Below, piece by piece: positions 15,533 through 32,082 of a DNA stretch of 64,000 nt. The DNA is taken from NCBI GenBank assembly GCA_965208105.1, contig OZ242318.1:501731-565730 (forward strand). The letters are read 5' to 3'. This DNA is from Candidatus Latescibacterota bacterium. GTDB lineage: Bacteria; Latescibacterota; UBA2968; UBA8231. The stretch's first letter is position 1, and each line of letters opens with the position of its first letter. The notes under the pieces are model-generated. The model was not told the DNA's origin and did not search any database. It saw nothing but the letters and a program-made list of their open reading frames with translations. Both the position numbers and the translations under genes were made by a program.

Positions 15533-15534
15533 AT

Positions 15535-17164: not shown

Positions 17165-17245
17165 TCTCCGCCGCAAAATCAGCTTTTCTGAAGGCAAAAA
17201 TCAGGTGTTTGCCCGATTGAAAAGCACCGTCTCCGTCTCTAATTT
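17165..17245 (+). promoter_or_regulatory. operator/promoter module copy A (upstream of the ABC ATPase)
   Basis: Palindrome GGCAAA-N9-TTTGCC at 17193-17213. Preceded by AAAATCAG (17175) and AAAATCAG (17197), 22 bp apart. Followed by TTGAAA (17217-17222), a 17-nt spacer and TAATTT (17240-17245). ATG of the next gene at 17290 with GAGGGAGG RBS. Homologous copies at 18685-18763 and 32180-32257. Confidence 0.6.
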
Positions 17246-17289
17246 AATTTGAACGACTCAACAACTTCTTACCCTGAGGGAGGTATATC

Positions 17290-18012
17290 ATGCTTGAAAT
17301 CATCTCCATGTCCAAGCACTACGGCGAGGTGCAGGCGGTCGACGAGCTCAACCTCACCATCCGCCCCGGTGAAATCTTTACTATGCTGGGGGCAAATGGC
17401 GCCGGCAAGACCACTACTCTTATGGTATCCCTTGGCTTTACCGAGCCGACGGCAGGCACGGTGAAGATCTGCGGCGTCGACGTGACCAGGGATCCCTTGG
17501 AGGCCAAAAAACACGTGGCTTACGTGTCAGAAAACGTCATGCTCTACGGCAATTTCACCGCCCGTCAAAACCTGGATTTCTTCGCCAAGTTAGGGGGGCG
17601 CAAGGACGCCACCGACGAAGAGTACGAGCGCATCATGGAGCGGGTGGGTCTGCAGGCGGACGCCTTCAACCGGAGGGTAAAAGGCTTTTCCAAAGGCATG
17701 CGCCAGAAGCTGGGCATCGCCATTGCGATCGTCAAAAACGCCGAGGTCATTTTGCTGGACGAGCCCACTTCAGGGCTGGATCCCCAGTCAGGGACCGAGT
17801 TTTTGCAGCTTTTGACCGAACTCAGGCACGAAGATAAAACCATCTGGATGACCACGCACGATGTCTTCCGCGCCAAGGCCATCGCCGACCGGGTGGGGAT
17901 CATGGTGAAGGGCAAGCTGGTAAAGACCTTTACGCGCGAGGAGTTGGAACGCGAGGATCTGGAGAAGATCTACGTGGAGTATGTCAGCCAGGAGGTGGGA
18001 CAGGCCGCCTGA
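17290..18012 (+). CDS. ABC-2-type transporter ATP-binding protein (no intact cognate permease adjacent)
   Basis: Walker A GANGAGKTT, signature FSKGMRQKLGIA, Walker B ILLDEPTSGLD. 240 aa, single NBD. Confidence 0.9.
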   Translation: MLEIISMSKHYGEVQAVDELNLTIRPGEIFTMLGANGAGKTTTLMVSLGFTEPTAGTVKICGVDVTRDPLEAKKHVAYVSENVMLYGNFTARQNLDFFAKLGGRKDATDEEYERIMERVGLQADAFNRRVKGFSKGMRQKLGIAIAIVKNAEVILLDEPTSGLDPQSGTEFLQLLTELRHEDKTIWMTTHDVFRAKAIADRVGIMVKGKLVKTFTREELEREDLEKIYVEYVSQEVGQAA

Positions 18013-18097
18013 GCACAACTCAGAAGTACTTACTTGTGATCGCCAAAAAAGAGATTGTCCACAATATCCTGAGTTTCAGGTCTGTGGCGATCCATGG
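18009..18097 (+). pseudogene. stub of an ABC-2 permease gene (first ~28 codons only)
   Basis: The frame overlapping the ATPase stop reads (L)STTQKYLLVIAKKEIVHNILSFRSVAIHG. This resembles the N-termini of the intact permeases at 24966/26383/27802 (MFKTILFKEIKGQLGTVTF). It has no ATG (CTG at the position of the usual ATGA overlap). Similarity ends near 18097. Confidence 0.55.
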
Positions 18098-18102
18098 GTT
18101 GC

Positions 18103-18196
18103 CAGTGGCAGTTTCGCGATCGAGTCAACGCCGGGGCAAGGCACGCGCTGCCTGCTGGCGGTTCCATTTTTATATCCAAGCCGGAGGGGACCCTCC
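18103..18196 (+). pseudogene. 3'-terminal remnant of a second sensor-kinase gene
   Basis: Encodes SGSFAIESTPGQGTRCLLAVPF, colinear with the C-terminus GGHFAIESSLGQGTSCLLTIPF of the kinase at 10677..11822. Nothing upstream of the G2 box is present. The reading frame runs into the next ATG without its own stop. Confidence 0.7.
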
Positions 18197-18628
18197 ATGA
18201 ATACGCAGGTGTTATTAGTAGAGGACCACGAGGCCGTGCGCCAGGAGCTGCGCTTGTTGCTTGAGCAACAAAGCGGAATTGAGGTAGTCGCCGAGGCCGG
18301 CGACGGCCGCACGGCCGTCGCCTTGGCCTCCACCTGTCTACCCGACATTGCGGTCATGGACGTTGGCCTGCCCCACCTGAATGGCATTGAGGCGACGCGA
18401 CAGATACGCGTCAAGGCGCCGGGCGTGAACGTGGTGGCGCTGTCGGTGCACGCGGACCGGCGTCTTGTAGACGGCATGTTTCAAGCAGGGGCTTCGGCGT
18501 ATGTGTTGAAAACGGCGGCTACCCGCGAGTTGGTGGAAGCGATCCGGCAGGTACAGGCCGGCCGCAAGTTCGTAAGTCCCGAATTGATCGCCCTCTTCGG
18601 CGAGGACTATGGCGCGTCTTCCTTCTGA
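18197..18628 (+). CDS. REC-only response regulator (LuxR-type paralog lacking the HTH domain; possibly a truncated gene)
   Basis: 143 aa. MNTQVLLVEDHEAVRQELRLLLEQQSGIEVVAEAGDGRTAVALAS...DIAVMDVGLPHLNGIEATRQIR is colinear with the RR at 11819..12466 up to ...SPELIALFGEDY, then diverges and stops. GGAGGGG RBS 7 nt upstream. Confidence 0.7.
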   Translation: MNTQVLLVEDHEAVRQELRLLLEQQSGIEVVAEAGDGRTAVALASTCLPDIAVMDVGLPHLNGIEATRQIRVKAPGVNVVALSVHADRRLVDGMFQAGASAYVLKTAATRELVEAIRQVQAGRKFVSPELIALFGEDYGASSF

Positions 18629-18684
18629 CGGCGCATTACAGAGAAAGATTCACCGAACTGGTGTTGTGAATCTCTCAGACACTC

Positions 18685-18763
18685 AGGCCGCAAAATCAGC
18701 TTCTCTGAAGGCAAAAATCGGGTGTTTACCCGATACCGACCAACCTGTCCTGTTGCTTAATTT
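18685..18763 (+). promoter_or_regulatory. operator/promoter module copy B (upstream of the peptide operon)
   Basis: AAAATCAG (18692) and AAAATCGG (18714) are 22 bp apart. Palindrome GGCAAA-N9-TTTACC. Conserved TAATTT at 18758-18763. The -35 position reads ACCGAC (poor), suggesting activator dependence. The first operon ATG is at 18860. Confidence 0.55.
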
Positions 18764-18859
18764 ATCCTTAAGAGTTGCGTCGATTTTTAACAAGTTGGAC
18801 AAGCAGCACTGGACGCCGAGGTAGTCGACCTACCGCCGCAAGCCTGGAGGAGAGATCGA

Positions 18860-20854
18860 ATGAAAAACATGAACATTAATAATGTATGCCTCTTCCTCGT
18901 GGGTATAATAGTATGGCCAACCTGTGGGACGGCAAGTTGGCACCTGAAGGCGTCCGGATATGAAGTTTCCAAGGTAAGGTATTCGATTTTCGGCGAAGGG
19001 TTGAAACAACACCGAGGATACTACTTTCCCGAATACCTGCCCGCAGACCGCGCGTTACATGTCGGATTCAAGCCCATCCGCTTCCAGAAATTTTCCGCCC
19101 TGGCCGAAGCTCTCGGCGCGAAAAGCGAAAAAATCCACGCTTGGAAAACCGAATTTGAGTCTCCTGTCAGGTGCTTGGACCAGATCACCTTCTTGTATCG
19201 CCGCATATATGCCAGGAACGTCAGTGAATACACAATTTATCTCCAATCCCCTCAGACTGAACAGTGGTACAGAAAAAGGATAATAATCCCTTTTAAGGGG
19301 TACCAGATCCCTTCATACGACGCGATTTCGCAATGGGAACCGTTGGTAGACGACGGCTCCGAAGAGGTATCCCAGTTTTTGAGCGAGGTTAACCATTTCG
19401 ATAAAATTGGCCAATTGGCGATCGTGGTTACTCCCTCGGATACGGACTTCGATTTTGTCATCGGAGACTTGCAAATAGTGGACCGGGAAATCGGCTATGC
19501 CGATTTCCATCATCCTTTTTTCGACCCGATTTTGAGCGAGGATTCCGCCCAGTACATCGAAAGAGATTCCTTTTACAATGCCTCAGGTATTCCCGCCCTG
19601 CTCCTTCCCATCAGTTGTTATGCCATGCACAGGAATTACGGGTCGGTTTTCCATTTCGACCCAGGGAATCGGGAAGTGGATGCCGGAGACATCAGGGACC
19701 TGAAAGTCAACGTTATCAAGCGAATTTTAGAGCTGTACTCATTCTATGAAGAACGCGGATTGGATAGGAAAAGCGCCCTGAACAGGTTTGCCTTCATCGA
19801 GAATTACGGGCTGGACAGAGAAGCTTTCGAGGACAGCGTCCGCGCTTTATTGGCAGATTTTCATGATGCCCATCTATCCGTAGCAAACAACGCCCATCTA
19901 TCCATAGCAAACAAGAAGAACAGATGCGCTTTCAATCATCCATTGGCGCTGTACAATATCGGCGGCAAAGTCTACGTGGCGGCGGTGTTCGACTCCCTAC
20001 TCGCGGACGATATAGAAGTGGGTATGAAGGTGCTCAAATTTGATGGAGTACCTGTGATTGAAGCGATAGACAGGGAAAGCGAGCATTACCGGGGCAGCAG
20101 CAAAATAAGAAGAAGGAAAGCGACGAGAAACCTGCTCGCATGCAGGCGAGACGAAAGGGCAACATTGAAACTTGCATCTGTTGATGGGGCAGTTAAAGAC
20201 GTCCTGATTGAAGACAGGAAAGTGCGGATTCCGTCGAATCTCGTGCCGCGACACGGAGAATTCAGGGTAGAAAGTGGGATAGTGTATTTTCGTATCCGCC
20301 AATGGACCTATGACGTGTGGATCCGGTTTTTGAACCATGCGGATGAACTCGAAAGCGCGAAGGGCCTGATCATCGATTTGAGGTCCAACGGTGGAGGTGA
20401 CGGCGGCACGGTGCTAAGGATGGTATCGGCGTTCATAGACGAGAACGCGCTATGTGGGAGCGAGTACTGTCCCGCCGACGGCAGAATCGAGAGCATGGTG
20501 ATAAGACCCAACGACAAATTCCATTTCGATCTGCCCGTCGTCATCCTGGCCAATGAGGCGACTGCCTGCGCAAGCGAGAACTTCATCGATATAATGAGAT
20601 CTACCAATCGGGCCATCATGGTGGCGGATAGTCACACACAGGGCCTTTTTTCGTCCAGGATCGACTTGATATTCCCGGACGGGATGAGGATTCATACCAA
20701 TAGCTTATCCAAACCGTTGAGACCCGATGGTTCTTCATACGAGGTAAAGGGGCTCGAGCCAGACATCTGGGTACACTTGAACACAATTGATGATCTGGCA
20801 CATCGGGAAGACAAGATACTGCGAACCGCAAATCATCTGCTGGAAGCGCAGTAG
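18860..20854 (+). CDS. S41-family (C-terminal processing / tail-specific type) peptidase with PDZ-like domain, N-terminal signal/anchor
   Basis: 664 aa. N-terminal hydrophobic segment VCLFLVGIIVWPTCG. PDZ-like GGKVYVAAVFDSLLADDIEVGMKVLKFDGVPV. S41 motifs GLIIDLRSNGGGDG and VVILANEATACASENF (Ser motif). The usual G-K-G lysine motif is not evident (DSHTQGLFSS). Lower-GC codon usage. Confidence 0.7.
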   Translation: MKNMNINNVCLFLVGIIVWPTCGTASWHLKASGYEVSKVRYSIFGEGLKQHRGYYFPEYLPADRALHVGFKPIRFQKFSALAEALGAKSEKIHAWKTEFESPVRCLDQITFLYRRIYARNVSEYTIYLQSPQTEQWYRKRIIIPFKGYQIPSYDAISQWEPLVDDGSEEVSQFLSEVNHFDKIGQLAIVVTPSDTDFDFVIGDLQIVDREIGYADFHHPFFDPILSEDSAQYIERDSFYNASGIPALLLPISCYAMHRNYGSVFHFDPGNREVDAGDIRDLKVNVIKRILELYSFYEERGLDRKSALNRFAFIENYGLDREAFEDSVRALLADFHDAHLSVANNAHLSIANKKNRCAFNHPLALYNIGGKVYVAAVFDSLLADDIEVGMKVLKFDGVPVIEAIDRESEHYRGSSKIRRRKATRNLLACRRDERATLKLASVDGAVKDVLIEDRKVRIPSNLVPRHGEFRVESGIVYFRIRQWTYDVWIRFLNHADELESAKGLIIDLRSNGGGDGGTVLRMVSAFIDENALCGSEYCPADGRIESMVIRPNDKFHFDLPVVILANEATACASENFIDIMRSTNRAIMVADSHTQGLFSSRIDLIFPDGMRIHTNSLSKPLRPDGSSYEVKGLEPDIWVHLNTIDDLAHREDKILRTANHLLEAQ

Positions 20855-20903
20855 AATCCATAGGCTTTGGAAGGCGACAAACTGTAAGAAAGGAGAACAT
20901 GCC

Positions 20904-21062
20904 ATGAAAGAGCTCATTAAGCCCAACTTGACTGAGGAAGAGTGCGAGAATAACGAGGTCGCGGCATATTGCGACCTTTATTCCTGCGCGCCCGTGAGTT
21001 GCAACCTTTGGTCGTGTCAACCCGTTTCGGGTGATGACGAGTCCGGGGACATTCTGTTCTAA
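20904..21062 (+). CDS. Cys-rich precursor-peptide candidate (52 aa) with four C-X3-S pentads
   Basis: AAGGAG (20889-20894) lies 9 nt before ATG 20904. MKELIKPNLTEEECENNEVAAYCDLYSCAPVSCNLWSCQPVSGDDESGDILF. It sits immediately upstream of a radical SAM/SPASM gene. The 91-aa track ORF from 20787 overlaps the end of the upstream gene and is less likely. Confidence 0.75.
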   Translation: MKELIKPNLTEEECENNEVAAYCDLYSCAPVSCNLWSCQPVSGDDESGDILF

Positions 21063-21248
21063 TTGCCAATTGTTCAGCGGAGGCCATAACAGCGAAGGAC
21101 CATTCGCCTGGAACACGTCTCTTGACCGTTTGACCCCATAACTACTTTTCGATCAGTTTGTCGCCTTCCACGTCTTTCAGAAGCCGTCTTAGACCCTCGG
21201 TGAGGATCACTAGGAACTTTAAGGAGGCTTCTTAAAAAGGAAAATGAG

Positions 21249-22730
21249 ATGTTTAAGTTGAGCTATTATACCTTCATCATCCCCGTAACCGAGAAGGGGA
21301 TGTACCTCGCCTATAATTCATTTACCAATGCATTGCTGGAATTGGAGTGGCATGAAGGCAAGAAGATGCTGGAGTGGAAAAAGAAGGATGCCATTCCCTC
21401 TTCGGAACTCGACAGCGAAGAAAAGCGCTTTGTAAACGCTTTGCTCAACAATCACTTTCTGGTAGACGAGGGGGTTGATGAGAAAGAGCGCTTGCATCGC
21501 CGCATTTCTACCCAGAAAGAAAGGTTCTGGAGAGAACCAGCGACCATGGCGCTCACCATATTGCCGACTATCTCGTGCAATATGGGTTGTTCCTATTGTT
21601 TTGAGGGATACAAGCCGTTCGGCAAGGTTATGAACAATGAGGTCATGGACGATATAGCCGAATTCGTGGTAAGAGAAATCAAGCAAAGCACTGTCGTCAG
21701 TTCCTTCAAAAAAATGTTCATCCAGTGGTACGGGGGGGAGCCCCTGCTGCAACCACATGTCGTCGATAGACTTTCGGAAAAATTGTACCGAATCGCCGAC
21801 GACAACCAAATCCCCTATACTTCGATGATCATTACGAACGGAACCTATCTAACGCCCGCTATATGGGATCTGTTAAAGGAAGCGAGAATTGACCGGATAC
21901 AAGTGACCATTGATGGCCACAAGGACTCCCACAACAGGCAACGCCCCCTCACCTTGCCGATCATCGGCCAGGAAATAGAGGCGGGTAGCTATGACACCAT
22001 ACTGGAAAACCTGAAGTATTTTCCGGACAAGATGGCTCTTAATATCCGGATAAATTCGGATAAGAATATAATCAATTCCCTGGGCGACCTCCTGGACGAC
22101 CTGGAGGAAATTGGCCTGTGGCCTCAGCAGGCTAGCCATGTGAGCCTGACCCTCGCCCATAAGGAAACTCCTTATGAAGAGTCGGGAGTAGTAGACATCG
22201 AGTCTCAGTACTTGAGCCTCAAGCAGCAAACCAAGGCGCAGAAGATATTCCAGGACATGAAGCTCAATCACTACAACAATTGGGCCTCCAAAAATAACAG
22301 GGTTTTGGCCAGGAAGCGTCTGGCCTACCCTGAACCGGCAACTTTTGTATGTGGGACTGCCTCGCTGCCTTACAGTTTTTCCATAAGTTACGACGGGCAT
22401 ATTCACCAGTGCATGGAGCAAGTCAACGATCCTAAAGCTAAGTCACATTACATTGGCGATACCTACAATATCCACGATCCCCTGCGGAAAATTTTCCTGA
22501 ACTGGGATAAATTCCTTCACCATCCAATGTGCACTGATTGCAGGGTACTGCCCATATGCGACATGGTTTGTCCTCACAAGGACCCGCCCGAAGCGTGCTG
22601 TGATTGGAAGGTAGACCTCAAATCGCGGTTGAAGGAGCAGTATATCGCGTCCATTGATACGCCCCACCTAATTGAGTCTTTCGACGCAGTAGAACAACAG
22701 CGGCAGAAAGATTTCACCCTCGTGATATAG
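21249..22730 (+). CDS. radical SAM / SPASM-domain peptide maturase
   Basis: CNMGCSYC (CxxxCxxC, 21576-21599). GGEPLL motif. SPASM 7-Cys pattern CGTASLPYSFSISYDGHIHQC ... CTDCRVLPICDMVC (C-x2-C-x5-C-x3-C). About 100-aa N-terminal extension that could be a leader-recognition (RRE-like) domain. Confidence 0.9.
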   Translation: MFKLSYYTFIIPVTEKGMYLAYNSFTNALLELEWHEGKKMLEWKKKDAIPSSELDSEEKRFVNALLNNHFLVDEGVDEKERLHRRISTQKERFWREPATMALTILPTISCNMGCSYCFEGYKPFGKVMNNEVMDDIAEFVVREIKQSTVVSSFKKMFIQWYGGEPLLQPHVVDRLSEKLYRIADDNQIPYTSMIITNGTYLTPAIWDLLKEARIDRIQVTIDGHKDSHNRQRPLTLPIIGQEIEAGSYDTILENLKYFPDKMALNIRINSDKNIINSLGDLLDDLEEIGLWPQQASHVSLTLAHKETPYEESGVVDIESQYLSLKQQTKAQKIFQDMKLNHYNNWASKNNRVLARKRLAYPEPATFVCGTASLPYSFSISYDGHIHQCMEQVNDPKAKSHYIGDTYNIHDPLRKIFLNWDKFLHHPMCTDCRVLPICDMVCPHKDPPEACCDWKVDLKSRLKEQYIASIDTPHLIESFDAVEQQRQKDFTLVI

Positions 22731-22744
22731 GGCCCCTAATACCC

Positions 22745-24640
22745 ATGCGAATAGCAATCATAGACAGCGGAATAGATGCGGGACACAAGCGTCTCAAGAA
22801 TTGCGTGTGCAGCGGCGTTTCGCTGCGGTGCGGCGAAGAAAAACCCACCCTTAGCTACGAATACGGCGACTGCCTGGGCCACGGGACCGCCTGTGCGAGC
22901 CTCGTGCACAAGGTGGACCCGCAGGCGGAAATAGTGGCGGTGAAGATATTTCACCGCGAGCTATCCGCCAAAGAGGAGCTACTTTGTGAAGGTATCAGAT
23001 GGTGTTTGGGCAACGACATCGACGTCATCAACCTGTCCCTCGGAATCCTGACGGATAGCCCCTCGCAAGCGCTGATCGGCCTGCTCGAAGAGGCCTTTGT
23101 GAAAAACGTCGTCGTCGTCTCGGCGGCGCACAACGACTTGAGGCTGGAATGCTACCCGGCGCATTTCCACACCGTGTTCGGCGTGACCTGGGGAAAGGTG
23201 GACCATCACTGCTTGTATGGTTATCTGCCCGACTCGGCCATCGAATTCATCGCCAAGGGGACGATACAGCGGGTCGCATGGAAAGACGGGGGCTATTCCC
23301 TATTGAGCGGAACGAGTATGGCCTGTGCCCATTTCACCGGCATCACCGCGGGCGTACTAAGGCAGAGCCCCTCTATGTCGGTCGGGGAACTCAGGAGCCA
23401 CCTTATCGGGAAGGCGGACGCGAATATTCGGGCGCTGCAACCTGGCAGCAAAATTCAGGGAGCCTTCCCGAGGATCATCAGCGGCGATCTGGACGAGGCG
23501 GGACGGAGGCTGTTCCGCTGGGAGGAAAAGATGGATTGGCTGGGGGACCTGGCCCTTTTTCCCGCCAGCGAAAAGGAGATGAGCGGCTTTGTCGAATTTC
23601 CCGGCTATTGTACGCAAAAGATAGCGAAGTACATTGACTACCCAAGAAACATGAAGAGGCAGGCCCCAAACGGCAGCGGCAAAAGCGATGCTATCAAAAC
23701 ATACGACAAGATGCTGGACGCGGCGGCTTGCGAAGACTTCGACACGATGGTTCTGGGATATTTTTTTGATCAACTCTTTGAGGCGAATATCCGCTTCGGC
23801 AACGACTTGCTGGCCGTGTGCATGGAGGCCCAAAAGAACCTCTACGTGTACGACCCCAGGTTGAAAGCTCATATCGATAGCCTGAACGGAAGTGCCAAGC
23901 CTTTGTTTCGGCTGTATATGCCGGAGGTCAATGGCCGGTTGCACGACCGTGTCATGCAGTTTCGCCATCTGCCCAGGGTACGGGTGCCCGTCATGGCAGT
24001 GATGGGCACGAGCAACCGCCAGGGGAAGTTCACCGCGCAACTCCGGCTCAAAGACATCCTCAACAGAGAGGAATACAAAGTCTGCCACCTATCCACTGAG
24101 CCCCAGGGTGAGTTGTTCGGGGCGGATTTCAGTTTTCCCTATGGCTATAACGGGACAGTTTCCATCCACCGCAAAAAGTGGTCGATGTTCCTCCGCACCC
24201 TGCTCAAAGCCGTCCAGGAATACAACAGACCCCATATCATCCTGACCGGGACACAAGGCATGACGATTCCCCGGGCACCCAACCAAGCCCCGCTGGGAAA
24301 TGAATGCGACAGCCTGGAATTCATGTACGGTGTCCATCCTGATGCTTTAGTTTGCGCCATAAATCCCCAGGATTCCATCGAACTGGTCGTCGACGCGTGC
24401 CAGGCGGCCCGGATATTCTGCGGGGCGGAACCCTTGTTTTTCATCATGACTCCCTGGATGAGAGACTACACGCGCGCCGGCAACGGCCGCATGGTACGCC
24501 ATCACCGATACCTGCATAAGGAAGAGATGGCGGAGAAAATGAACCATTTCCAGGAGGTATTGCACAAGCCGGTCATCGATATCATGGATTTGAACAATGA
24601 CAAGCTAATCTTGGACGCCATCCAGGATTTCTTTTCGTGA
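22745..24640 (+). CDS. S8 subtilisin-like serine peptidase fused to a ~400-aa C-terminal P-loop (DUF1611-like?) domain
   Basis: Catalytic triad contexts IAIIDSGIDAGH (Asp), CLGHGTACASLV (His), LLSGTSMACAHF (Ser), all within the first ~230 aa and with no signal peptide. The C-terminal part contains VMAVMGTSNRQGKFT (G-x5-GK-type loop). Confidence 0.75.
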   Translation: MRIAIIDSGIDAGHKRLKNCVCSGVSLRCGEEKPTLSYEYGDCLGHGTACASLVHKVDPQAEIVAVKIFHRELSAKEELLCEGIRWCLGNDIDVINLSLGILTDSPSQALIGLLEEAFVKNVVVVSAAHNDLRLECYPAHFHTVFGVTWGKVDHHCLYGYLPDSAIEFIAKGTIQRVAWKDGGYSLLSGTSMACAHFTGITAGVLRQSPSMSVGELRSHLIGKADANIRALQPGSKIQGAFPRIISGDLDEAGRRLFRWEEKMDWLGDLALFPASEKEMSGFVEFPGYCTQKIAKYIDYPRNMKRQAPNGSGKSDAIKTYDKMLDAAACEDFDTMVLGYFFDQLFEANIRFGNDLLAVCMEAQKNLYVYDPRLKAHIDSLNGSAKPLFRLYMPEVNGRLHDRVMQFRHLPRVRVPVMAVMGTSNRQGKFTAQLRLKDILNREEYKVCHLSTEPQGELFGADFSFPYGYNGTVSIHRKKWSMFLRTLLKAVQEYNRPHIILTGTQGMTIPRAPNQAPLGNECDSLEFMYGVHPDALVCAINPQDSIELVVDACQAARIFCGAEPLFFIMTPWMRDYTRAGNGRMVRHHRYLHKEEMAEKMNHFQEVLHKPVIDIMDLNNDKLILDAIQDFFS

Positions 24641-24954
24641 ACGGGCGTGAGGACGGCACCATGAGAGAAGCTATCGAGCAGCGATTGTACGAACTGATAG
24701 GGACGTTTGGAGACCAACCGATCAACTGCTCTGTTGAGAGCGAAGTGCGAAGGATGCTCCATATCATCTTGAGCGAGTCCATACAAGCGATGGAATTCGT
24801 CATCGCCATTGAGAACGAATTCGAGATCGAGTTCGACGACGAAGACATCTCCATCCAATTCTTCCTCGACCCGGATCATATCATCCAATCCGTGCTGAGA
24901 GGTCTGGCGCGGAAGGAGGCGGATGGCCTAACATCATCAAGTGCTGTCACCTGA
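24637..24954 (+). CDS. acyl-carrier-protein-like small protein
   Basis: LHIILSESIQAMEFVIAIENEFEIEFDDEDI aligns with the ACP helix II region (DSL replaced by ESI, Ser retained). GTG 24637 overlaps the upstream stop (GTGA). Alternative ATG at 24661. Confidence 0.6.
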   Translation: MNGREDGTMREAIEQRLYELIGTFGDQPINCSVESEVRRMLHIILSESIQAMEFVIAIENEFEIEFDDEDISIQFFLDPDHIIQSVLRGLARKEADGLTSSSAVT

Positions 24955-24965
24955 GGAGGTCTGCC

Positions 24966-26366
24966 ATGTTCAAGACCATTCTGTTCAAGGAAATCAAGGG
25001 CCAATTAGGCACGGTGACATTCGCCGTCTGGATGGGCGTCTCGTGCTTTCTGGTCTGGATGGCCCTGGAGAGCGGTTATTCGAGATACGAGCACAAGCAT
25101 CAGCAATACCTCGATATGGACAGGGTGGTCAAAGACGGCCTCAGCAAAGAATACGACGTCAACAAGGCGGAAGAGGAGCTCTTCCGGGTTTTGCGGCAGC
25201 CGTCGGTGTTGAGCGCAGTTGTCTACGGGCTGGAAGGCAAGATGCCGATCTATATGAGTGTCAATCCCAACGGCGTACGCTCCGGTTCGGGGTCAGGCAC
25301 GGAAGAATCCGTATTGAGCCTGTTCGGGGAGCTGGATTTTCTCCTGGTCATCGAGCTGATTCTCGGGCTGATGGCCGTGGTGCAGGCGGCCAGTCTGGTG
25401 TCTTCGGAGAGGGAAAACGGCACTCTGAAGCTGATATTGGCCAACCCGGTTTCCCGCAGCACCGTCTTGCTGGGCAAGTGTATGGGCGGATACGCTGTCG
25501 TCGCCTTCGTCTTTGTGTTTTCCTCCTTTATCGGGTTTTTGCTTCTCTCGATCAGGGGGTTTCCACTTTTCGAGTCGGACGTGCTCGCGCCGATACTCCT
25601 GATCTTGGCCGGGAGCCTGGTCTATTTGCTGTGCATCTTTCTGGTGGGGATGGTCGGTTCTATCCTGTTCCTGAACACTCAAACGGCCTTGATATTGAGC
25701 GTGTCGATCTGGGCCGCGCTGTCTTTTCTCGTTCCCAAAAGCGCCCGGATCGCGGCCGAGTTGATCCGCCCGGTAGAGGACGAGCGGACGGTTTACTTGC
25801 GTCAGAAGCACGCCCGTGAAGACCTGATCAGGGCCCAGCATGAGGAAATGAGCGAGAATTACCGCCAGGAGTTGACTCCAGAATGGCTGATGGCCAACTT
25901 CGCGACCTTGGCAGAGGAAGGCGCGGCAGTTTGGAAGAAATACAGCGACCGGATCTCCAAAGACCTGACCACCATCGCCGAGGACCACCACCGGGAGAAG
26001 AAAGCGCAGGAATCTCTGGGTAAGGTGCTGTCCCGGGTATCCCCCGCGGGCAGTTTCCGGCTGCTCTTGGCGAATTTGTCCGGTACGGGCGACCAGGTGA
26101 AGTGGGAATTACTGCAAGTGGCCTGGAACTACCAGAAAACGGTCAATGACAAGGTCTTCGCCAAAAAACCCTTGATCGCTGTCCAGAATATGAGTTTCCC
26201 CCATGATATGGGTACAGAGGATCCGCCGCCCCCACCTCTGGTCATGGCGCCGCCCCTCGGCAGTGTCTTGACCGAATCCGCGCTAGACACAGCCTTATTA
26301 TGCGTCTATGCCGTCATGTTGTTCATGCTGGCCTATATGCTGTTCCTGCGGCGCTCTATCGTGTAA
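24966..26366 (+). CDS. ABC-2-family permease-like membrane protein with long C-terminal extension, paralog 1
   Basis: MFKTILFKEIKGQLGTVTFAVWMGV. Conserved SSERENGTLKLILANPVSRSTVLLGK. Multiple TM helices. Pro-rich stretch and terminal TM helix near the C-terminus. Confidence 0.8.
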   Translation: MFKTILFKEIKGQLGTVTFAVWMGVSCFLVWMALESGYSRYEHKHQQYLDMDRVVKDGLSKEYDVNKAEEELFRVLRQPSVLSAVVYGLEGKMPIYMSVNPNGVRSGSGSGTEESVLSLFGELDFLLVIELILGLMAVVQAASLVSSERENGTLKLILANPVSRSTVLLGKCMGGYAVVAFVFVFSSFIGFLLLSIRGFPLFESDVLAPILLILAGSLVYLLCIFLVGMVGSILFLNTQTALILSVSIWAALSFLVPKSARIAAELIRPVEDERTVYLRQKHAREDLIRAQHEEMSENYRQELTPEWLMANFATLAEEGAAVWKKYSDRISKDLTTIAEDHHREKKAQESLGKVLSRVSPAGSFRLLLANLSGTGDQVKWELLQVAWNYQKTVNDKVFAKKPLIAVQNMSFPHDMGTEDPPPPPLVMAPPLGSVLTESALDTALLCVYAVMLFMLAYMLFLRRSIV

Positions 26367-26382
26367 TAGAGGAGTCATCCCC

Positions 26383-27786
26383 ATGTTCAAGACTATTCTG
26401 TTCAAGGAAATCAAGGGCCATTTAGGCACGGTGACATTCGCCGTCTGGATGGGCGTCTCGTGCCTGGTGGTATGGATGGCTCTGGAGAGCGGCTATTCGA
26501 GATACGAGCACAAGCATCAGCAATACCTCGATCAGGAACGAGAGGCGAAAAAAAGCCTCAGTAAAGAATACTTTGCGTTCTGGCCGGAAGAGGAAATATT
26601 CCGGGTGCTGCGCCAGCCGTCGGTGTTGAGCACCATCGTCTATGGGCTTGAAGGTGAGCTGCCGGTTTATCTGAGCGTCAACCCCAACGGCGTCCGGTCC
26701 GGTTCGAAGGGGATGGGTGGAGCTATGTCGCGCCTGTTGGGAGAGCTGGATTTTCTCCTGGTCATCGAGATGGTGTTCGGGCTGATGGCCGTCGTGCTGG
26801 CGGCCACTCTGGTGTCGTCGGAGGGAGAAAACGGGACGCTCAAGCTGATATTGGCCAACCCGGTCTCCCGCAGCACGGTCTTGTTGGGGAAGGGGCTGGG
26901 CGCCTTCGCCATCATCGCCTTTGTCTTTGTGTTTTCCACTTTTATCGGGCTTTTGTTCCTGTCGGTGAAGGGGTTTCCCCTCCTCGAACGGGAGGTGCTC
27001 GCGTCACTGCTCGTGATTGTGGCGGGAAGTCTGGTTTATTTGCTGTGCGTTTTCCTGGTGGGGATGATCTGCTCCATCCTGTTTTTGAACACCCGGGTGG
27101 CCTTGGTGCTGAGCGTCTTGCTGTGGGCGGTGCTGTCTTTTCTGCTGCCCAAAAGCGCCGGGACTGCGGCGGAGTTGATGCGCCCGGCAGAAGACGGTTG
27201 GACCGTTTACTTGCGTCAGAAATCCGCCCGTGAAGCCCATCTCAAGGCCCACCACGAGGAAGTGAACAAGCATTACCCCCATCTGGGTCCAGCCCCGGAC
27301 TCGAGGGATCTGGACTACCCAGGGATTACGGAGACTGCCGTAGCGGCTTGGGGGAAGTACAGCGACCGGATCGCCAAAGAAGTGACCACCATCGCCGAGG
27401 ATCACAATCGCAACAAGCAAGCCCAGGAAGCCCTGGGGAAGGTGCTGTCCCGGCTATCCCCCGCAAGCAGTCTCCGCCTGCTGTTGGCCAATGTGGCCGG
27501 CACGGGCGACCAGGTGAAGCGCAACTTCCTGCAAGCGGCCTGGAACTATCAGAATACGGTTGACGACAAAGTCTTCTCAAAAAGAATCCATATCACTATC
27601 AGGAAGAATCAGGGTTGGCCCTGGGACATGGGTGCAGAGCGACCGCCGCCCCTGCCCCCGCTCCTGCCGCCGTCTCTCGAGAGTGTCTTGGTGGAGTCGG
27701 CGTTAGAAATCGCTTTATTGTTCGTCTATTCCGTCTTCCTGTTCATGCTGGCCTATATGCTTTTCATTCGTCGATCCATCGCGTAG
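26383..27786 (+). CDS. ABC-2-family permease-like membrane protein, paralog 2
   Basis: ATG 26383 after GAGGAG. The first ~150 nt are nearly identical to paralog 1. SSEGENGTLKLILANPVSRSTVLLGK. Confidence 0.8.
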   Translation: MFKTILFKEIKGHLGTVTFAVWMGVSCLVVWMALESGYSRYEHKHQQYLDQEREAKKSLSKEYFAFWPEEEIFRVLRQPSVLSTIVYGLEGELPVYLSVNPNGVRSGSKGMGGAMSRLLGELDFLLVIEMVFGLMAVVLAATLVSSEGENGTLKLILANPVSRSTVLLGKGLGAFAIIAFVFVFSTFIGLLFLSVKGFPLLEREVLASLLVIVAGSLVYLLCVFLVGMICSILFLNTRVALVLSVLLWAVLSFLLPKSAGTAAELMRPAEDGWTVYLRQKSAREAHLKAHHEEVNKHYPHLGPAPDSRDLDYPGITETAVAAWGKYSDRIAKEVTTIAEDHNRNKQAQEALGKVLSRLSPASSLRLLLANVAGTGDQVKRNFLQAAWNYQNTVDDKVFSKRIHITIRKNQGWPWDMGAERPPPLPPLLPPSLESVLVESALEIALLFVYSVFLFMLAYMLFIRRSIA

Positions 27787-27801
27787 TAATGGAGTCTTAT
27801 C

Positions 27802-29229
27802 ATGTTCAAGACCATTATGTTCACGGAAATCAGGAGTCGCTTGGGCACGGTAACTTTCTCCCTGTGGCTGGGCGTCTCGTGCTTGGTGGTATGGATGGCT
27901 CTCGAGAGCGGCTACTCGAGATACGAGCACAAGCATCAGCAGTACCTCGATCTGAAACGGGCGGCCCAAGATGGCCTCAGCAAAGCATACATGCCGGTCG
28001 TAGCGGAAGAGGACATATTCCGGGTTCTGCGTGAGCTCTCCGTGTTGAGTGCCATCGTCTACGGGCTGGAAGGCGAGATGCCGGTCTATATGAGCGTCAA
28101 TCCCAACGGCGTACAGCCCGGGGCGGGGATAGCGGATAAATCCTTGTTGGACCTGTTGGGAGAGTTGGATTTTCTCCTGGTCATCGAGCTGATTCTCGGG
28201 TTGATGGCCGTGGTGCAGGCAGCCACTCTGGTGTCGTCGGAAGAGGGAAACGGGACGCTCAAACTGATGTTGGCCAACCCGGTCTCTCGCAGCACCGTCC
28301 TGTTGGGGAAGGGGCTGGGCGCCTTCGCCGTCATCGCCTTCACCCTTTTGTTTTCCACCCTTTTCGGACTTTTTTTGCTCTCGGTCCGGGGATTTCCGCT
28401 CTTCGAGGCAGCGGTGCTCGCGCCGATACTCTTGATCTTGACGGGGAGCCTGGTCTATCTGCTCGTCATCTTTCTGATCGGGCTGACCTGCTCTATTCTG
28501 TTTCTGAATTCCCAGGTAGCTTTGATCCTGAGTGTCTCGCTCTGGGCTGCGCTGTCTTTTCTCGTGCCCCAAAGCGCCTGGACTACGGCGGAGTTGATCC
28601 GCCCGGCAGAGAACGAGCGGACGGTTTATGTGCGGCAGAAATACGCCCGCGAAGCCCATCTCAATGCCTACCACGAGGAATTGAACAAGCGTTACCCCCA
28701 CCTGCAACCTGACGCAGAGGGCAATGCGGACTGGTCGGGGGTCAACCAGACCGAGTTGACGAAGGACGCGGTGGCGGTTTGGGCGAAATACAGCGACCGG
28801 ATCGCCAAAGAAGTGACCACCATCGCCGAGAACTACCACCGGAACAAGCAAGCGCAGGAAGCCCTCGGTAGGGTGCTGTCCCGGGTCTCCCCCACCGGCA
28901 GTTTCCGCCTACTCTTGGCCAACCTGGCCGGTACGGGCAACCAGGTGAGGTGGAAATTCTTGCAAGCGGCCTGGGACTACCAGAATATGGCAAACGATAA
29001 AGTCTTCTCAAAAGATCCCATGATCACTATCGGACCCTCGAGTTGGTGGCCCAGTATTATGCGGGGTGCAGATAACCCTCCTCCCCCACCTCCCCCACCA
29101 CCGGTCATGGTTCCGTCCCTCGGCAGCGTCTTGACAGAGTCGGCCTTGGACATGGCCATGCTGTTCATTTACGCCGTCGTGCTCTTCATGTTGGCGTATT
29201 CGCTGTTCATGCGTCGGTCCATTGTATAG
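27802..29229 (+). CDS. ABC-2-family permease-like membrane protein, paralog 3
   Basis: MFKTIMFTEIRSRLGTVTFSLWLGV. SSEEGNGTLKLMLANPVSRSTVLLGK. PPPPPPPPP tract before the last TM helix. Confidence 0.8.
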   Translation: MFKTIMFTEIRSRLGTVTFSLWLGVSCLVVWMALESGYSRYEHKHQQYLDLKRAAQDGLSKAYMPVVAEEDIFRVLRELSVLSAIVYGLEGEMPVYMSVNPNGVQPGAGIADKSLLDLLGELDFLLVIELILGLMAVVQAATLVSSEEGNGTLKLMLANPVSRSTVLLGKGLGAFAVIAFTLLFSTLFGLFLLSVRGFPLFEAAVLAPILLILTGSLVYLLVIFLIGLTCSILFLNSQVALILSVSLWAALSFLVPQSAWTTAELIRPAENERTVYVRQKYAREAHLNAYHEELNKRYPHLQPDAEGNADWSGVNQTELTKDAVAVWAKYSDRIAKEVTTIAENYHRNKQAQEALGRVLSRVSPTGSFRLLLANLAGTGNQVRWKFLQAAWDYQNMANDKVFSKDPMITIGPSSWWPSIMRGADNPPPPPPPPPVMVPSLGSVLTESALDMAMLFIYAVVLFMLAYSLFMRRSIV

Positions 29230-29266
29230 TCCGCCGCTCCCATTGCATGAGGATGAGTTGAGAGTT

Positions 29267-31023: not shown

Positions 31024-32082
31024 ATGAGCTACCAGATGTCGACTAAAGAGTTATACTTACCGCTCAATCCCAATCCTCCGATTAGAGTCTATCTGCATCA
31101 TGCCTACCCTCTGTCAATTTTATCAAGTACCGAAGAGTATTTGCCCTGGTTCCGAAGCAACTTTGTTCAACTGTATAGCGGGGGTCCCGATCATATCGAT
31201 TTCCTCGTACCCATGCTTACACACGCAGACCATCCTCAGATCTACTATTCTCCTCTTCTGAACGTGGTTCGGCTCAATAGAAAAATCGTCGATTTGATAA
31301 ATGCCGATTCTGAAATCTGGAGATTCATTGTCGACTGTATAACAGAGGGCTTCTACGTCGATATCGAGGTTGATGAATATCACGTTCCTTTTACTCGCGC
31401 ATTCCATAATTTTCATACTGGACATTCTCTTCTGATTCATGGCTACAATACTGCTCAGGAAAAATTCAGTGCCATCGGTTACGATCGAAACGGCAAATAC
31501 GGCATCCAGCTTGTCGATTTTGCCAGCACACTCAAAGCTTACGGTAGCCGGGAAAGTAAAAATCACATGGCAATAGTGTCTCATGCTTTAAGACAGAAAA
31601 CGGGCCGCGATAGCAACATCCAGTGCGAATTCACGCTCGAGTTGGTGGTTGACATGCTCAAGGACTACATCCACTCAATCAACACGCTTGACCGGTTGAA
31701 GTTGGTTTTGAGATCGAACTATAGATCGAATTCCCTGCGTTTTGGAATTGAGGCCGTCAGAAAATTGCGATTTGAACCTAGTGCGGCGAATGCGCCTTTG
31801 GATCTGCGTCCTTCTCACTGTCTCTGGGAGCATAAGAAATGTATGGCCGAGAGGGTTCAGTACCTGGTAGAAAACGGATATTTGGACAAGGTTGGAAATT
31901 TGGTATTTGAGTTCGGAAAAATTGCTAAAATGGCGGAATCACTCAGGCTGCTGGCAATCAAGTACAACTTGCAGAAACAACGAAAAATACTCCATAAAAT
32001 GGACAACCTGAGAAACAAAATAGTTGAGGGTGAGAAATTCCTCATAAAAAATTTACTGGACCGACTACCGTCATGCCCATGA
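31024..32082 (+). CDS. hypothetical protein (orphan, last gene of the lower-GC operon)
   Basis: 352-aa ORF, AT-rich codon usage like its neighbours, 8 nt after the exporter stop. No motif I can assign with confidence. Confidence 0.6.
   Translation: MSYQMSTKELYLPLNPNPPIRVYLHHAYPLSILSSTEEYLPWFRSNFVQLYSGGPDHIDFLVPMLTHADHPQIYYSPLLNVVRLNRKIVDLINADSEIWRFIVDCITEGFYVDIEVDEYHVPFTRAFHNFHTGHSLLIHGYNTAQEKFSAIGYDRNGKYGIQLVDFASTLKAYGSRESKNHMAIVSHALRQKTGRDSNIQCEFTLELVVDMLKDYIHSINTLDRLKLVLRSNYRSNSLRFGIEAVRKLRFEPSAANAPLDLRPSHCLWEHKKCMAERVQYLVENGYLDKVGNLVFEFGKIAKMAESLRLLAIKYNLQKQRKILHKMDNLRNKIVEGEKFLIKNLLDRLPSCP

What the first reader, a model, noticed from the sequence alone, without database searches (positions are those of the whole stretch)
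17290..29229. Orphan ABC-2 ATPase outside the island versus three orphan ABC-2 permease paralogs inside it
The ATPase at 17290..18012 is followed only by a ~28-codon stub of its permease gene (18009-18097). The lower-GC operon contains three tandem ABC-2-type permease paralogs (24966, 26383, 27802) but no single-NBD ATPase; the only NBD there is fused to the type-I exporter. The components are therefore complementary across a recombination junction.

The three permease genes share nearly identical first ~150 nt, which suggests recent duplication or gene conversion. They look GC-richer than their operon neighbours, so the island is mosaic. Each has a long soluble insertion, a poly-Pro tract and a terminal TM helix.

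By analogy with LanFEG/BcrAB-type self-protection transporters (established for lantibiotic and bacitracin producers), this set could be the immunity pump of the peptide system.
Basis: partly seen in the sequence, partly recalled or inferred. Interest (0 to 1): 0.6.

Follow-up and report, generated by a model that had tools for sequence, protein, structure and literature searches.

The report
Island permeases borrowing a resident ATPase
A horizontally acquired peptide-antibiotic gene cluster in a Latescibacterota genome carries three copies of a transporter membrane subunit but no motor, and sits beside a resident motor (ATPase) gene whose own membrane subunits were deleted; relatives show the same pairing, so the two most likely form one pump that expels the peptide.

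Summary
The ATPase at 17290-18012 is intact. It is followed only by a start-less remnant of its native permease, then by a histidine-kinase tail and a receiver-only regulator. Three tandem ABC-2/DUF3526 permease genes (24966-29229) lie in a 'DD(I/V)LF'-type radical-SAM peptide (RiPP) operon that has no single-domain ATPase.

Comparative genomics supports the proposed complementarity. In about ten related genomes the orthologous ATPase is followed by its own permease pair. In every locus that has the island-type permease, those genes are missing. In three of the four other loci (G010, G153 and a TARA scaffold; the last two are one lineage) the same ATPase clade sits in the cluster. All five loci adjoin an OEP-NEW3-NEW3 module.

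Synonymous divergence separates island genes, permeases included (dS 0.3-0.6), from the resident module and ATPase (dS 1.0-2.1).

Two non-producer genomes keep permease, ATPase and module after losing the maturase. That pattern fits immunity or efflux, but function is untested.

The conserved 5' end is family-wide, and only about 75 nt of perm1/perm2 look converted. LanFEG membership is not met; the fold is NosY-like. I rate this a new variant of a known kind, of moderate interest.

The parts
10677..12466 (+). Resident two-component system: a PAS/HisKA_3 kinase (10677-11822) and a NarL/LuxR-type regulator (11819-12466). It is the source-like paralog of the scar fragment at 18105-18628.
   Evidence: Pfam; blastn 71% identity of 11725-12228 to 18105-18603.
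12678..14021 (+). TolC-like outer-membrane efflux protein (OEP), first gene of the resident module.
   Evidence: PF02321, 106 bits. Orthologs lie next to NEW3a/NEW3b in 10 relatives.
14018..17067 (+). Two paralogous NEW3-domain proteins (NEW3a 14018-15532; NEW3b about 15535-17067). Each has a signal peptide, an alpha-helical hairpin, Ig-like beta-sandwich domains and a C-terminal TM anchor. They are candidate periplasmic adaptors.
   Evidence: PF10633; hydropathy; AF2 model of NEW3a, pLDDT 75.6; Foldseek gives only Ig-chain matches and no MFP.
17166..17230 (+). Copy A of a repeat with three copies in the genome. It contains the palindrome ATCAGGTGTTTGCCCGAT and ends 60 nt (its palindrome 73 nt) upstream of the ATPase start codon.
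   Evidence: blastn against the whole genome finds three copies only; alignment; pattern search.
17290..18012 (+). Resident single-NBD ABC ATPase of the ABC-2/DrrA type, intact. It is the proposed motor for the island permeases.
   Evidence: It is 77-85% identical to orthologs in 13 relatives. Motifs are intact and dN/dS is 0.05-0.10. There is no close paralog in the genome; the next best is 34%.
18009..18097 (+). Start-less remnant (about 29 codons) of the native gene downstream of the ATPase (the N-terminus of permA, or of a permA-like gene).
   Evidence: 15 of 25 residues are identical to the G008/G021 gene, which starts 13 nt after the ATPase.
18105..18628 (+). Recombination scar: a histidine-kinase C-terminal tail followed by a receiver-only response regulator (18197-18628, 143 aa, no HTH).
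   Evidence: PF00072 only; 61% aa and 71% nt identity to the resident regulator/kinase.
18687..18734 (+). Copy B of the repeat, with the perfect palindrome ATCGGGTGTTTACCCGAT, 126 nt upstream of the S41 start codon (the head of the peptide operon).
18860..24954 (+). Biosynthetic part of the island: S41 peptidase (18860-20854), precursor (20904-21062, ending in GDILF), rSAM/SPASM maturase of the FlmE/OhkG type (21249-22730), S8 peptidase fused to a DUF1611-like domain (22745-24640), and an ACP-like protein (24637-24954).
   Evidence: The DD(I/V)LF family is described in PMC12703449.
24966..26366 (+). perm1: island-type ABC-2/DUF3526 permease. It is the ortholog of the single-copy gene in G010 (89.5% aa).
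   Evidence: AF2 pLDDT 81, NosY-like fold.
26383..27786 (+). perm2: paralog, 68% aa identical to perm1 and sister to perm3.
27802..29229 (+). perm3: paralog, 68% aa identical to perm1 and perm2, with the longest poly-Pro run.
29267..31015 (+). Type-I (ABC_membrane + ABC_tran) half-transporter exporter. The ORF is open from a TTG at 29222; the likely start is the ATG at 29267.
31024..32082 (+). BtrH_N-like protein, the last gene of the island.
   Evidence: 28.6 bits, just below the cut-off. BtrH_N homologs occur in the G138 locus and, at about 28% identity, in the TARA and G153 loci.
32180..32242 (+). Copy C of the repeat, directly after the island. It is in direct orientation to copy A, with which it aligns over about 85-95 nt.

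Best explanation
The three island-encoded ABC-2/DUF3526 permeases are the membrane subunits of an ABC transporter. Its motor is the resident ATPase at 17290-18012.

The resident system was originally OEP + NEW3a + NEW3b plus ATPase + permA + permB. This layout is common in the family. A horizontally moving DD(I/V)LF-type RiPP island recombined into this locus and removed permA/permB. What remains is a 29-codon stub and a kinase/regulator scar. The island supplied its own divergent permease, which is present here in three old tandem copies.

I infer that permease dimers (homo- or heteromeric) dock on the ATPase dimer through the N-terminal interface helix and the conserved coupling segment (SSE.ENGTLKLILANPVSRSTVLLGK). 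I also infer that, together with the C-terminally anchored NEW3 proteins and the TolC-like OEP, they expel the mature peptide from the inner membrane or periplasm to the outside. That would give the second export step and self-protection at once.

Shown: gene content, the scar, the phyletic pattern, the divergence strata and the fold. Inferred: physical pairing, the substrate, and the direction of transport.
For: 1. Leftover matching in this genome. The other three PF12679 hits each lie directly downstream of their own ATPase gene. The only unpaired ones are the three paralogs. The only ATPase of this clade is 17290, and the next best ATPase is 34% identical.

2. Phyletic complementarity. Ten related loci have ATPase ortholog + permA + permB and no island permease. 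Four loci have the island permease plus the ATPase ortholog and no permA/permB. These are the window; G010 (permease 229 nt upstream of the ATPase, which is then followed by the acetamidase gene that lies beyond permB in G007, G006 and G002); and G153 and the TARA scaffold (perm-exporter-OEP-NEW3-NEW3-ATPase).

3. All five island-permease loci adjoin OEP-NEW3a-NEW3b. In the concatenated tree these modules are polyphyletic with 99-100% support. The window groups with native G008/G021, G010 with native G007/G019/G018, and TARA/G138 with G006.

4. Divergence strata. Window versus G138, G010 or G153 gives dS 0.27-0.58 for island genes, perm1 included, and dS 1.0-2.1 for OEP, NEW3 and the ATPase. 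The island therefore moved between genera and met a resident ATPase each time.

5. The ATPase is intact, with dN/dS 0.08-0.10 between the three permease-less copies. The paralogs are intact, with dN/dS 0.37-0.40.

6. The permease model (pLDDT 81, pTM 0.79) has a six-TM fold. It is closest to NosY of NosDFY, which works with a separate ATPase (Foldseek target-normalised TM-score 0.74-0.79; PDB profile E = 2e-15). The coupling segment is the best-conserved stretch between island permeases and native permA/permB, at about 17 of 26 residues against about 26% overall.

7. Efflux or immunity. G010 and G153 have no intact maturase anywhere, yet they keep permease(s), ATPase, OEP and NEW3 intact. The permease was also duplicated independently in G153 (93% aa, dS 0.10).

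8. The same 48-nt palindrome-bearing element lies upstream of both the ATPase and the peptide operon.
Against: - No direct evidence of physical pairing.
- In G138 the island permease and OEP-NEW3-NEW3 are present but the cluster has no ATPase; an FtsX/MacB-type permease follows NEW3b. An in-cluster ATPase is therefore not obligatory.
- The conserved coupling motif is generic to ABC-2 permeases.
- Adjacency could partly reflect where the island can recombine rather than function.
- The window's ATPase has a somewhat long terminal branch (0.16 against a median of 0.086). This could mean relaxed constraint.
- The substrate is unknown. The native system works without any RiPP cluster. flm/ohk clusters of Bacteroidota have no such permease.
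- NEW3 proteins gave no structural match to known membrane-fusion proteins.
Confidence: 0.55

Rival explanations
1. Coincidental leftovers. The ATPase is a decaying relic of a system destroyed by the insertion. The island permeases work with some other ATPase encoded elsewhere, or are themselves non-functional cargo.
For: G138 has the island permease without an ATPase in the cluster. It also has three 72%-identical ATPase paralogs elsewhere, one of them without permeases. So use in trans, or no use at all, is conceivable. The window's ATPase has a longish terminal branch. No expression data are available.
Against: The ATPase ORF and all catalytic motifs are intact in three permease-less lineages, with dN/dS about 0.1. 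It has a good Shine-Dalgarno sequence (GAGGGAGG). No other ATPase of this clade exists in the genome. The other PF12679 permeases each have their own adjacent ATPase. The same leftover combination recurs with three different junction architectures.
Confidence: 0.2
2. The pairing is real, but the machine is not an efflux or immunity pump. Like NosDFY or FtsEX/LolCDE, it would be a mechanotransducer. ATP hydrolysis would drive a periplasmic event, such as activating or loading the membrane-anchored S41 peptidase, or maturing or lipid-linking the peptide.
For: The closest solved relative by sequence and fold is NosY. As far as I recall, NosY does not move a substrate across the membrane. The permease has a large helical periplasmic domain (258-400) with a 45-residue helix. 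The S41 peptidase has an N-terminal anchor. A type-I exporter for crossing the inner membrane already exists in the operon.
Against: G010 and G153 lack S41, the precursor and an intact maturase, yet retain permease, ATPase, OEP and NEW3. This argues for a role that does not depend on the biosynthetic enzymes. The constant link to a TolC-like OEP points to passage across the outer membrane.
Confidence: 0.15
3. The adjacency is purely a by-product of integration. The island carries (or carried) its own copy of the OEP-NEW3-ATPase module. It enters genomes by homologous recombination with the resident copy, so co-location says nothing about which ATPase the permease uses.
For: The module genes are conserved enough (ATPase 77-85% aa) to act as recombination anchors. 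The stub, scar and direct repeats A and C flanking 17231-32180 show recombination at this site. The module phylogeny tracks the host.
Against: Even under this model, the island's ancestral form pairs the permease with an ATPase of this clade. Recombination alone does not explain why permA/permB are absent and the ATPase is retained intact in every case, including G010, where the island lies upstream of the ATPase and the deletion lies downstream of it.
Confidence: 0.1

Closest known systems
NosFY (of NosDFY), the ABC-2-type complex of nitrous-oxide reductase maturation
   Same: It is the only solved relative by sequence (PDB profile E = 2e-15 over TM2-TM5) and the best fold match (target-normalised TM-score 0.74-0.79). 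It shares the Pfam family PF12679, has six TM helices and uses a separate single-NBD ATPase.
   Different: NosY (about 270 aa) lacks the 90-aa and 185-aa periplasmic insertions (DUF3526). No NosD, NosL or NosZ genes are present here. The context is a RiPP operon plus OEP/NEW3 proteins, not copper delivery.
LanFEG / BcrAB / McbEF-type self-protection ABC-2 transporters of peptide-antibiotic producers (from my own knowledge)
   Same: A separate ATPase plus ABC-2 permease(s) encoded with a peptide biosynthetic cluster. The proposed role is to expel the producer's own product. Non-producers retain the pump, as happens with orphan immunity genes.
   Different: The curated models are not met (TIGR03740: 154 bits against a 310-bit cut-off; no LanE/G hit). 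The peptide is a radical-SAM DD(I/V)LF type, not a lanthipeptide. The ATPase is not part of the transferred cluster but a resident gene. The system is tied to an outer-membrane channel in a diderm.
Tripartite ABC efflux pumps with ABC-2 permeases (E. coli YbhGFSR; H. pylori HP1486-1489, PMC9570263) and MacAB-TolC
   Same: An ABC ATPase, two ABC-2-type permease subunits and a TolC-family outer-membrane protein are encoded together. The native family system (ATPase-permA-permB with OEP) has this logic.
   Different: No HlyD/MFP-family adaptor is present. Instead there are two NEW3-domain proteins with an alpha-hairpin, Ig-like domains and a C-terminal anchor. The permeases carry their large domain between TM5 and TM6.
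flm / ohk 'DD(I/V)LF' orphan RiPP clusters of Bacteroidota (PMC12703449)
   Same: The precursor ends in GDILF. The best rSAM match is the FlmE/OhkG model. An S41 peptidase, an S8 peptidase, an ACP-like protein and a type-I ABC exporter are present.
   Different: flm/ohk have FtsX-type permeases of about 780 aa and no DUF3526 ABC-2 permease. The window has no peptide arginase and its precursor has no Arg (G138 has both). The rSAM score (378 bits) is below the model cut-off of 500.
Shared-ATPase ABC systems (ECF group II transporters, MsiK-type shared importer ATPases; from my own knowledge)
   Same: One ATPase module serves membrane subunits that are encoded elsewhere or acquired separately.
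   Different: Those are importers with unrelated folds. Here the resident permeases are displaced rather than added to, and the case concerns an exporter-type ABC-2 system.

Membership tests
ABC-2 / type V ABC transporter permease (Pfam PF12679 ABC2_membrane_2, NosY-like) | Sequence match above the curated threshold | tested here: met
   87.3, 98.5 and 100.4 bits against a 27.2-bit cut-off for perm1-3. The PDB profile hits NosY at E = 2e-15.
ABC-2 / type V ABC transporter permease (Pfam PF12679 ABC2_membrane_2, NosY-like) | Six TM helices with an N-terminal cytoplasmic interface helix and a coupling segment between TM2 and TM3; fold similar to solved members | tested here: met
   Hydropathy. 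AF2 model with pLDDT 81 and pTM 0.79: H2-14, TM helices at 17-58, 125-142, 164-196, 204-234, 238-267 and 431-462. Foldseek best hits are NosY, probability 1.0, target-normalised TM-score 0.74-0.79.
ABC-2 / type V ABC transporter permease (Pfam PF12679 ABC2_membrane_2, NosY-like) | Works with a separately encoded single-NBD ATPase, usually the adjacent gene | tested here: inconclusive
   The permeases have no fused NBD and no adjacent ATPase in the operon. The candidate lies 7 kb upstream. Orthologous ATPases are adjacent or in-cluster in G010, G153 and TARA. Physical pairing was not testable.
LanFEG lantibiotic-immunity transporter | LanF-type ATPase (NCBIfam TIGR03740) | tested here: not met
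   154.4 bits against a cut-off of 309.75. The DrrA subfamily scores higher, at 207 bits.
LanFEG lantibiotic-immunity transporter | LanE/LanG-type permeases | tested here: not met
   No lantibiotic-permease NCBIfam model matched at E <= 0.001. PF12730 (ABC2_membrane_4) scores only 31-34 bits, far below PF12679.
LanFEG lantibiotic-immunity transporter | Confers producer immunity to the cognate peptide | not testable with these tools
   There is only indirect support: the pump is retained in G010 and G153, which lack the maturase.
DD(I/V)LF-type RiPP cluster (flm/ohk) | Precursor with a C-terminal DD(I/V)LF-like motif | tested here: met
   The precursor at 20904-21062 ends in ...SGDDESGDILF. It is the only such ORF in the genome. 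The motif is described in PMC12703449.
DD(I/V)LF-type RiPP cluster (flm/ohk) | FlmE/OhkG-family rSAM/SPASM maturase (NF052473) | tested here: inconclusive
   It is by far the best hit (378 bits, E = 6e-113, full length) but below the curated cut-off of 500.
DD(I/V)LF-type RiPP cluster (flm/ohk) | Peptide arginase FlmR/OhkR | tested here: not met
   None is present in the window. The homologous island in G138 has one after its single permease (PF12640). The arginase defines the published set, not necessarily the peptide family.
Tripartite ABC efflux pump (MacAB-TolC / YbhGFSR type) | TolC-family outer-membrane protein encoded with the transporter | tested here: met
   PF02321, 106 bits, at 12678-14021. 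It is linked in all five island-permease loci.
Tripartite ABC efflux pump (MacAB-TolC / YbhGFSR type) | HlyD/MFP-family periplasmic adaptor | tested here: not met
   No MFP Pfam hit in 10.6-32.1 kb. The NEW3a model has an alpha-hairpin at 27-106, but Foldseek returns only Ig-like chain proteins. phmmer to the MexJ adaptor gives E = 0.32, not significant.

The most novel reading that the evidence does not exclude
A horizontally mobile RiPP island carries only the substrate-specific membrane subunit of an ABC-2 pump. It repeatedly lands in the host's resident OEP/NEW3/ATPase tripartite system and displaces that system's own permease pair. In this way it re-programs the host's motor, adaptors and outer-membrane channel to handle the island's peptide. 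This would be a 'plug-in permease' strategy for moving export or immunity between genera without moving the whole pump.
Probability: 0.35. Interest if true: 0.7.

Novelty: new variant of a known kind. Interest (0 to 1): 0.5.

Why it matters
If the pairing is real, it shows a modular route by which a peptide-antibiotic cluster spreads. The cluster brings only the specificity-determining membrane subunit and takes over a conserved host ATPase, periplasmic NEW3 proteins and a TolC-like channel.

That would bear on how immunity or export is predicted for orphan RiPP clusters, because a cluster would look as if it had no transporter ATPase. It would give a first functional handle on DUF3526 permeases and on NEW3-domain 'adaptor' proteins; full-text searches found nothing on DUF3526 and no paper on NEW3 proteins with ABC-2 or OEP genes. 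It would also explain why non-producing relatives keep the pump.

It also supplies complete candidate producers (this genome and G138) for the still uncharacterised DD(I/V)LF peptide family. Both have only been seen in metagenome-derived assemblies.

Tried and rejected
- Recent duplication: rejected. All three paralog pairs are 78% nt and 68% aa identical, with dS about 0.5. perm2 and perm3 split at about the depth of the inter-genus orthologs.
- Gene conversion over the first 150 nt: mostly rejected. Orthologs from other genera are equally conserved there, and synonymous differences are present in codons 26-50. Only perm1/perm2 nt 1-75 (97.3%, against 86.7% to the G010 ortholog) remain suggestive.
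- The permeases as a separately acquired GC-rich patch in this genome: rejected. Their dS stratum equals that of the other island genes. The GC3 pattern recurs in G138, G153 and G010.
- The island permease as a recent derivative of native permA or permB: not supported. It forms its own clade on a long stem (2.28) outside both.
- A decayed ATPase or permease after repeat copy C (32243-34300): blastx found nothing.
- The repeat element as a known RNA or a conserved operator in relatives: no Rfam hit and no copies in related loci.
- ATPase phylogeny as a test of co-transfer: too poorly resolved. The concatenated module tree and dS were used instead.
- Literature on DUF3526 or on NEW3 with ABC-2: nothing relevant except H. 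pylori tripartite ABC-2 pumps.
- P0005's contig was not retrievable.
It was identified later, in the phylum survey, as G138.

Full report
**What is there.** The window is positions 501731-565730 of a 4.85-Mb single-contig genome. The nearest named relative of one locus is a 'Candidatus Latescibacterota' MAG.

On the + strand the region reads as follows:
- PAS histidine kinase (10677-11822)
- NarL-type regulator (11819-12466)
- TolC-like OEP (12678-14021)
- two NEW3-domain paralogs (14018-15532 and about 15535-17067)
- single-NBD ABC ATPase (17290-18012)
- a scar (18009-18628)
- a tightly packed operon: S41 peptidase, a 52-aa Cys-rich precursor ending in GDILF (20904-21062), an rSAM/SPASM maturase, an S8 peptidase fused to a DUF1611-like domain, an ACP-like protein, three ABC-2 permeases (24966-26366, 26383-27786, 27802-29229), a type-I ABC exporter and a BtrH_N-like protein (to 32082).

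The precursor motif and the gene set place the operon in the orphan 'DD(I/V)LF' RiPP family described for the flm and ohk clusters of Bacteroidota (PMC12703449). Those clusters have no ABC-2/DUF3526 permease.

**Check of the observation.** The ATPase is intact and has a good ribosome-binding site.

Right after its stop codon the sequence encodes ...KYLLVIAKKEIVHNILSFRSVAIHG without a start codon. In G008 and G021 the gene that starts 13 nt after the orthologous ATPase begins MTLLYIIRKEIVNNILSFRFVAAYG. In G007, G019 and G002 the first native permease begins in the same way. So the stub is a genuine remnant.

From about 18105 the sequence switches to a 71%-nt copy of the kinase 3' end and regulator 5' end found at 11725-12228. 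This produces a kinase tail and a receiver-only regulator.

The three permeases each match PF12679 well above threshold, and two also match DUF3526. Each has TM1, a 90-aa loop, TM2-5, a soluble region of about 185 aa with a poly-Pro run, and a last TM helix. Their GC3 (0.75-0.76) exceeds that of S41 (0.60), the rSAM gene (0.63), the exporter (0.69) and BtrH (0.50).

One sub-claim is overstated. The first 150 nt are 94.7% identical between perm1 and perm2, but only 85-87% against perm3.

**Age of the paralogs.** All three pairs are 78% nt and 68% aa identical, with dS about 0.5, dN about 0.2 and dN/dS about 0.38. In a tree with orthologs and native permeases, the island-type permeases form their own clade (100/100 support, stem length 2.28). 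perm1 is sister to the G010 gene (89.5% aa). perm2 and perm3 are sisters that branch at about the depth of the inter-genus orthologs.

The N-terminal 50 residues (interface helix, TM1 and ESGYSRYEHKHQQYLD) are conserved in all family members. In codons 26-50, synonymous differences are present (pS 0.28-0.43) while pN is 0-0.03. That is purifying selection, not recent duplication. Only nt 1-75 of perm1/perm2 (97.3%, against 86.7% to perm1's own ortholog) hint at a short conversion tract. G153 carries an independent, young tandem duplication (93% aa, dS 0.10).

**The native system and the phyletic pattern.** Orthologs of the ATPase (77-85% aa) occur in 13 related genomes. In ten of them the ATPase is accompanied by two DUF3526-type permeases, permA and permB. 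These are 24-28% identical to the window's permeases. They lie downstream in most, sometimes after a HEAT-like lipoprotein gene, and upstream in G006 and G020. In most of these genomes an OEP-NEW3a-NEW3b operon lies alongside, often divergently.

The island-type permease is rare. A search of about 5.8 billion proteins gave six close relatives. It is present in four of 167 other Latescibacterota genomes; one of those, G067, is only a distant 32% relative.

Its known contexts are:
- G010: S8 fragment, ACP-like gene, permease, then the ATPase ortholog 229 nt downstream. OEP-NEW3-NEW3 is divergent. The ATPase is followed by the acetamidase gene that in G007, G006 and G002 lies beyond permB. So permA/permB were deleted there too.
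- G153 and a near-identical TARA scaffold: (S8, ACP), permease(s), exporter, small ORF, OEP, NEW3a, NEW3b, ATPase, glycosyltransferase. There is no permA/permB.
- G138: the complete cluster with one permease and a peptide arginase, then OEP-NEW3-NEW3 about 9 kb downstream. NEW3b is followed by an FtsX/MacB-type permease instead of the ATPase.

Thus all five loci adjoin the OEP-NEW3-NEW3 module. Four of the five contain the ATPase clade. None contains permA/permB or any other ABC-2-type ATPase.

**Who moved.** The concatenated OEP+NEW3a+NEW3b tree puts the window with native G008/G021 (100/99), G010 with native G007/G019/G018 (100/99), and TARA/G138 with G006 (99/98). The modules linked to the island are thus polyphyletic.

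Synonymous divergence gives two clean strata. For the window against G138, G010 or G153:
- S41, rSAM, S8, ACP, perm1 and the exporter have dS 0.27-0.58.
- OEP, NEW3a/b and the ATPase have dS 1.0-2.1.

The island, permease included, therefore spread horizontally among genera after their modules had diverged. It ended up next to a resident module at least three times, each time with a different junction architecture.

The GC3 profile (permease highest, S41 and rSAM lowest) is the same in G138, G153 and G010. The 'mosaic' composition therefore travels with the island rather than being a feature of this window. It is consistent with a permease recruited in a GC-rich lineage onto a lower-GC biosynthetic core. 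This last point is inference.

**Is the ATPase alive, and is it the only candidate?** All motifs are identical to those of orthologs that have native partners. dN/dS is 0.08-0.10 among the three permease-less copies, against 0.03-0.06 among native ones. Its terminal branch is somewhat long.

In this genome the other three PF12679 hits each lie directly after their own ATPase gene. There is no second ATPase of this clade; the next best is 34% identical.

A repeat with only three copies in the genome carries the palindrome ATC(G/A)GGTGTT(T/C)(A/G)CCCGAT. It lies 73 nt upstream of the ATPase start, 126 nt upstream of the S41 start, and just after the island. Copies A and C are direct repeats that flank 17231-32180. 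This fits either a shared operator (co-regulation) or a recombination footprint. I could not tell which.

**Structure.** An AF2 model of perm1 (32-sequence alignment; pLDDT 81, pTM 0.79) shows an N-terminal amphipathic helix, six TM helices and a largely helical periplasmic domain. That domain is built from both loops and includes a 45-residue helix.

Foldseek's best matches are NosY chains of NosDFY (target-normalised TM-score 0.74-0.79), then ABCG/ABCA transporters. NosY is also the only significant PDB sequence hit. This family needs a separate NBD.

The segment between TM2 and TM3 is SSE.ENGTLKLILANPVSRSTVLLGK. It is the stretch best conserved between island permeases and native permA/permB, though a looser form is generic to ABC-2 proteins.

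NEW3a is modelled as signal peptide, alpha-hairpin (27-106), a chain of Ig-like domains and a C-terminal TM helix. No membrane-fusion protein appears among its fold matches, so an adaptor role is only inferred.

**Function.** G010 and G153 have no intact maturase anywhere and no precursor in the locus. They nevertheless keep permease(s), ATPase, OEP and NEW3 genes intact. dN/dS between perm1 and the G010 gene is 0.21. The TARA scaffold likewise has a deletion that fuses S41 and S8 fragments.

Retention of the pump without biosynthesis, and repeated amplification of the permease, are what one expects of a resistance or immunity determinant. The constant link to a TolC-like protein suggests expulsion across the outer membrane.

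It does not support membership in LanFEG: the lantibiotic-protection ATPase model scores half its cut-off, and no LanE/G model matches. A NosDFY- or FtsEX-like mechanotransducer role remains a rival.

**Verdict.** The most likely reading (about 0.55) is a chimeric ABC-2 pump: island-encoded permeases, a resident ATPase, and resident NEW3/OEP parts, serving export and self-protection for a DD(I/V)LF peptide. It is a new variant of a known kind (RiPP-associated ABC-2 protection or export transporters). Its unusual feature is that the subunits are split across a horizontal-transfer boundary, and this recurs in three lineages.

Noticed in passing
window 7121-7256 (+): Rfam match to group II intron domains D1-D4 (RF02003, 117.6 bits against a 49-bit gathering score), upstream of the two-component system.
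   Followed up: no
window 17166-17230, 18687-18734, 32180-32242: A repeat present only three times in the 4.85-Mb genome, all within 15 kb. It has an 18-bp palindrome and lies upstream of the ATPase, upstream of the S41/peptide operon and just after the island. It is absent from related loci. It could be an operator or a recombination footprint.
   Followed up: partly
L018 (G008) 10676-12133; L017 (G021) equivalent: The gene right after the ATPase is a 485-aa HEAT-like lipoprotein. Its signal peptide (MTLLYIIRKEIVNNILSFRFVAAYGVLALFLGC) looks like the N-terminus of a native permease fused to a lipobox. G019 and G005 have the lipoprotein with an ordinary signal peptide. The window's stub is most similar to this G008/G021 version.
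   Followed up: partly
L014 7541-7693; L029 7939-8073; G153 between exporter and OEP: A conserved 44-50-aa hydrophobic ORF (MEGYRRNNWKSWFADVGFIYLIVVG...). In the TARA and G153 loci it directly precedes the OEP gene; in G138 it lies about 2.5 kb upstream of OEP. The window has no equivalent upstream of its OEP.
   Followed up: partly
L029 15287-17728 (G138): In G138 the position after NEW3b is occupied by an 813-aa FtsX/MacB_PCD double permease instead of the ATPase. The ohk cluster of Bacteroidota, and the flank of the flm cluster, also contain FtsX-type permeases of about 780 aa (PMC12703449, Tables S2 and S3).
   Followed up: no
L043 5636-7896 (G138): A second OEP + ATPase (72% identical to the window's ATPase) with no permease genes downstream. 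This is another permease-less ATPase, about 0.8 Mb from that genome's RiPP cluster.
   Followed up: partly
window 14018-17067: NEW3a and NEW3b are predicted to have a long alpha-helical hairpin, a chain of Ig-like domains and a C-terminal membrane anchor. This is an adaptor-like layout with no match to known membrane-fusion proteins.
   Followed up: partly
window 20904-21062 versus L013 4855-5013: The window's precursor has no arginine and the cluster has no peptide arginase. The G138 cluster encodes an arginase (PF12640), yet its 52-aa precursor, as read here, also shows no Arg in the core. The arginase's substrate there is therefore unclear.
   Followed up: no
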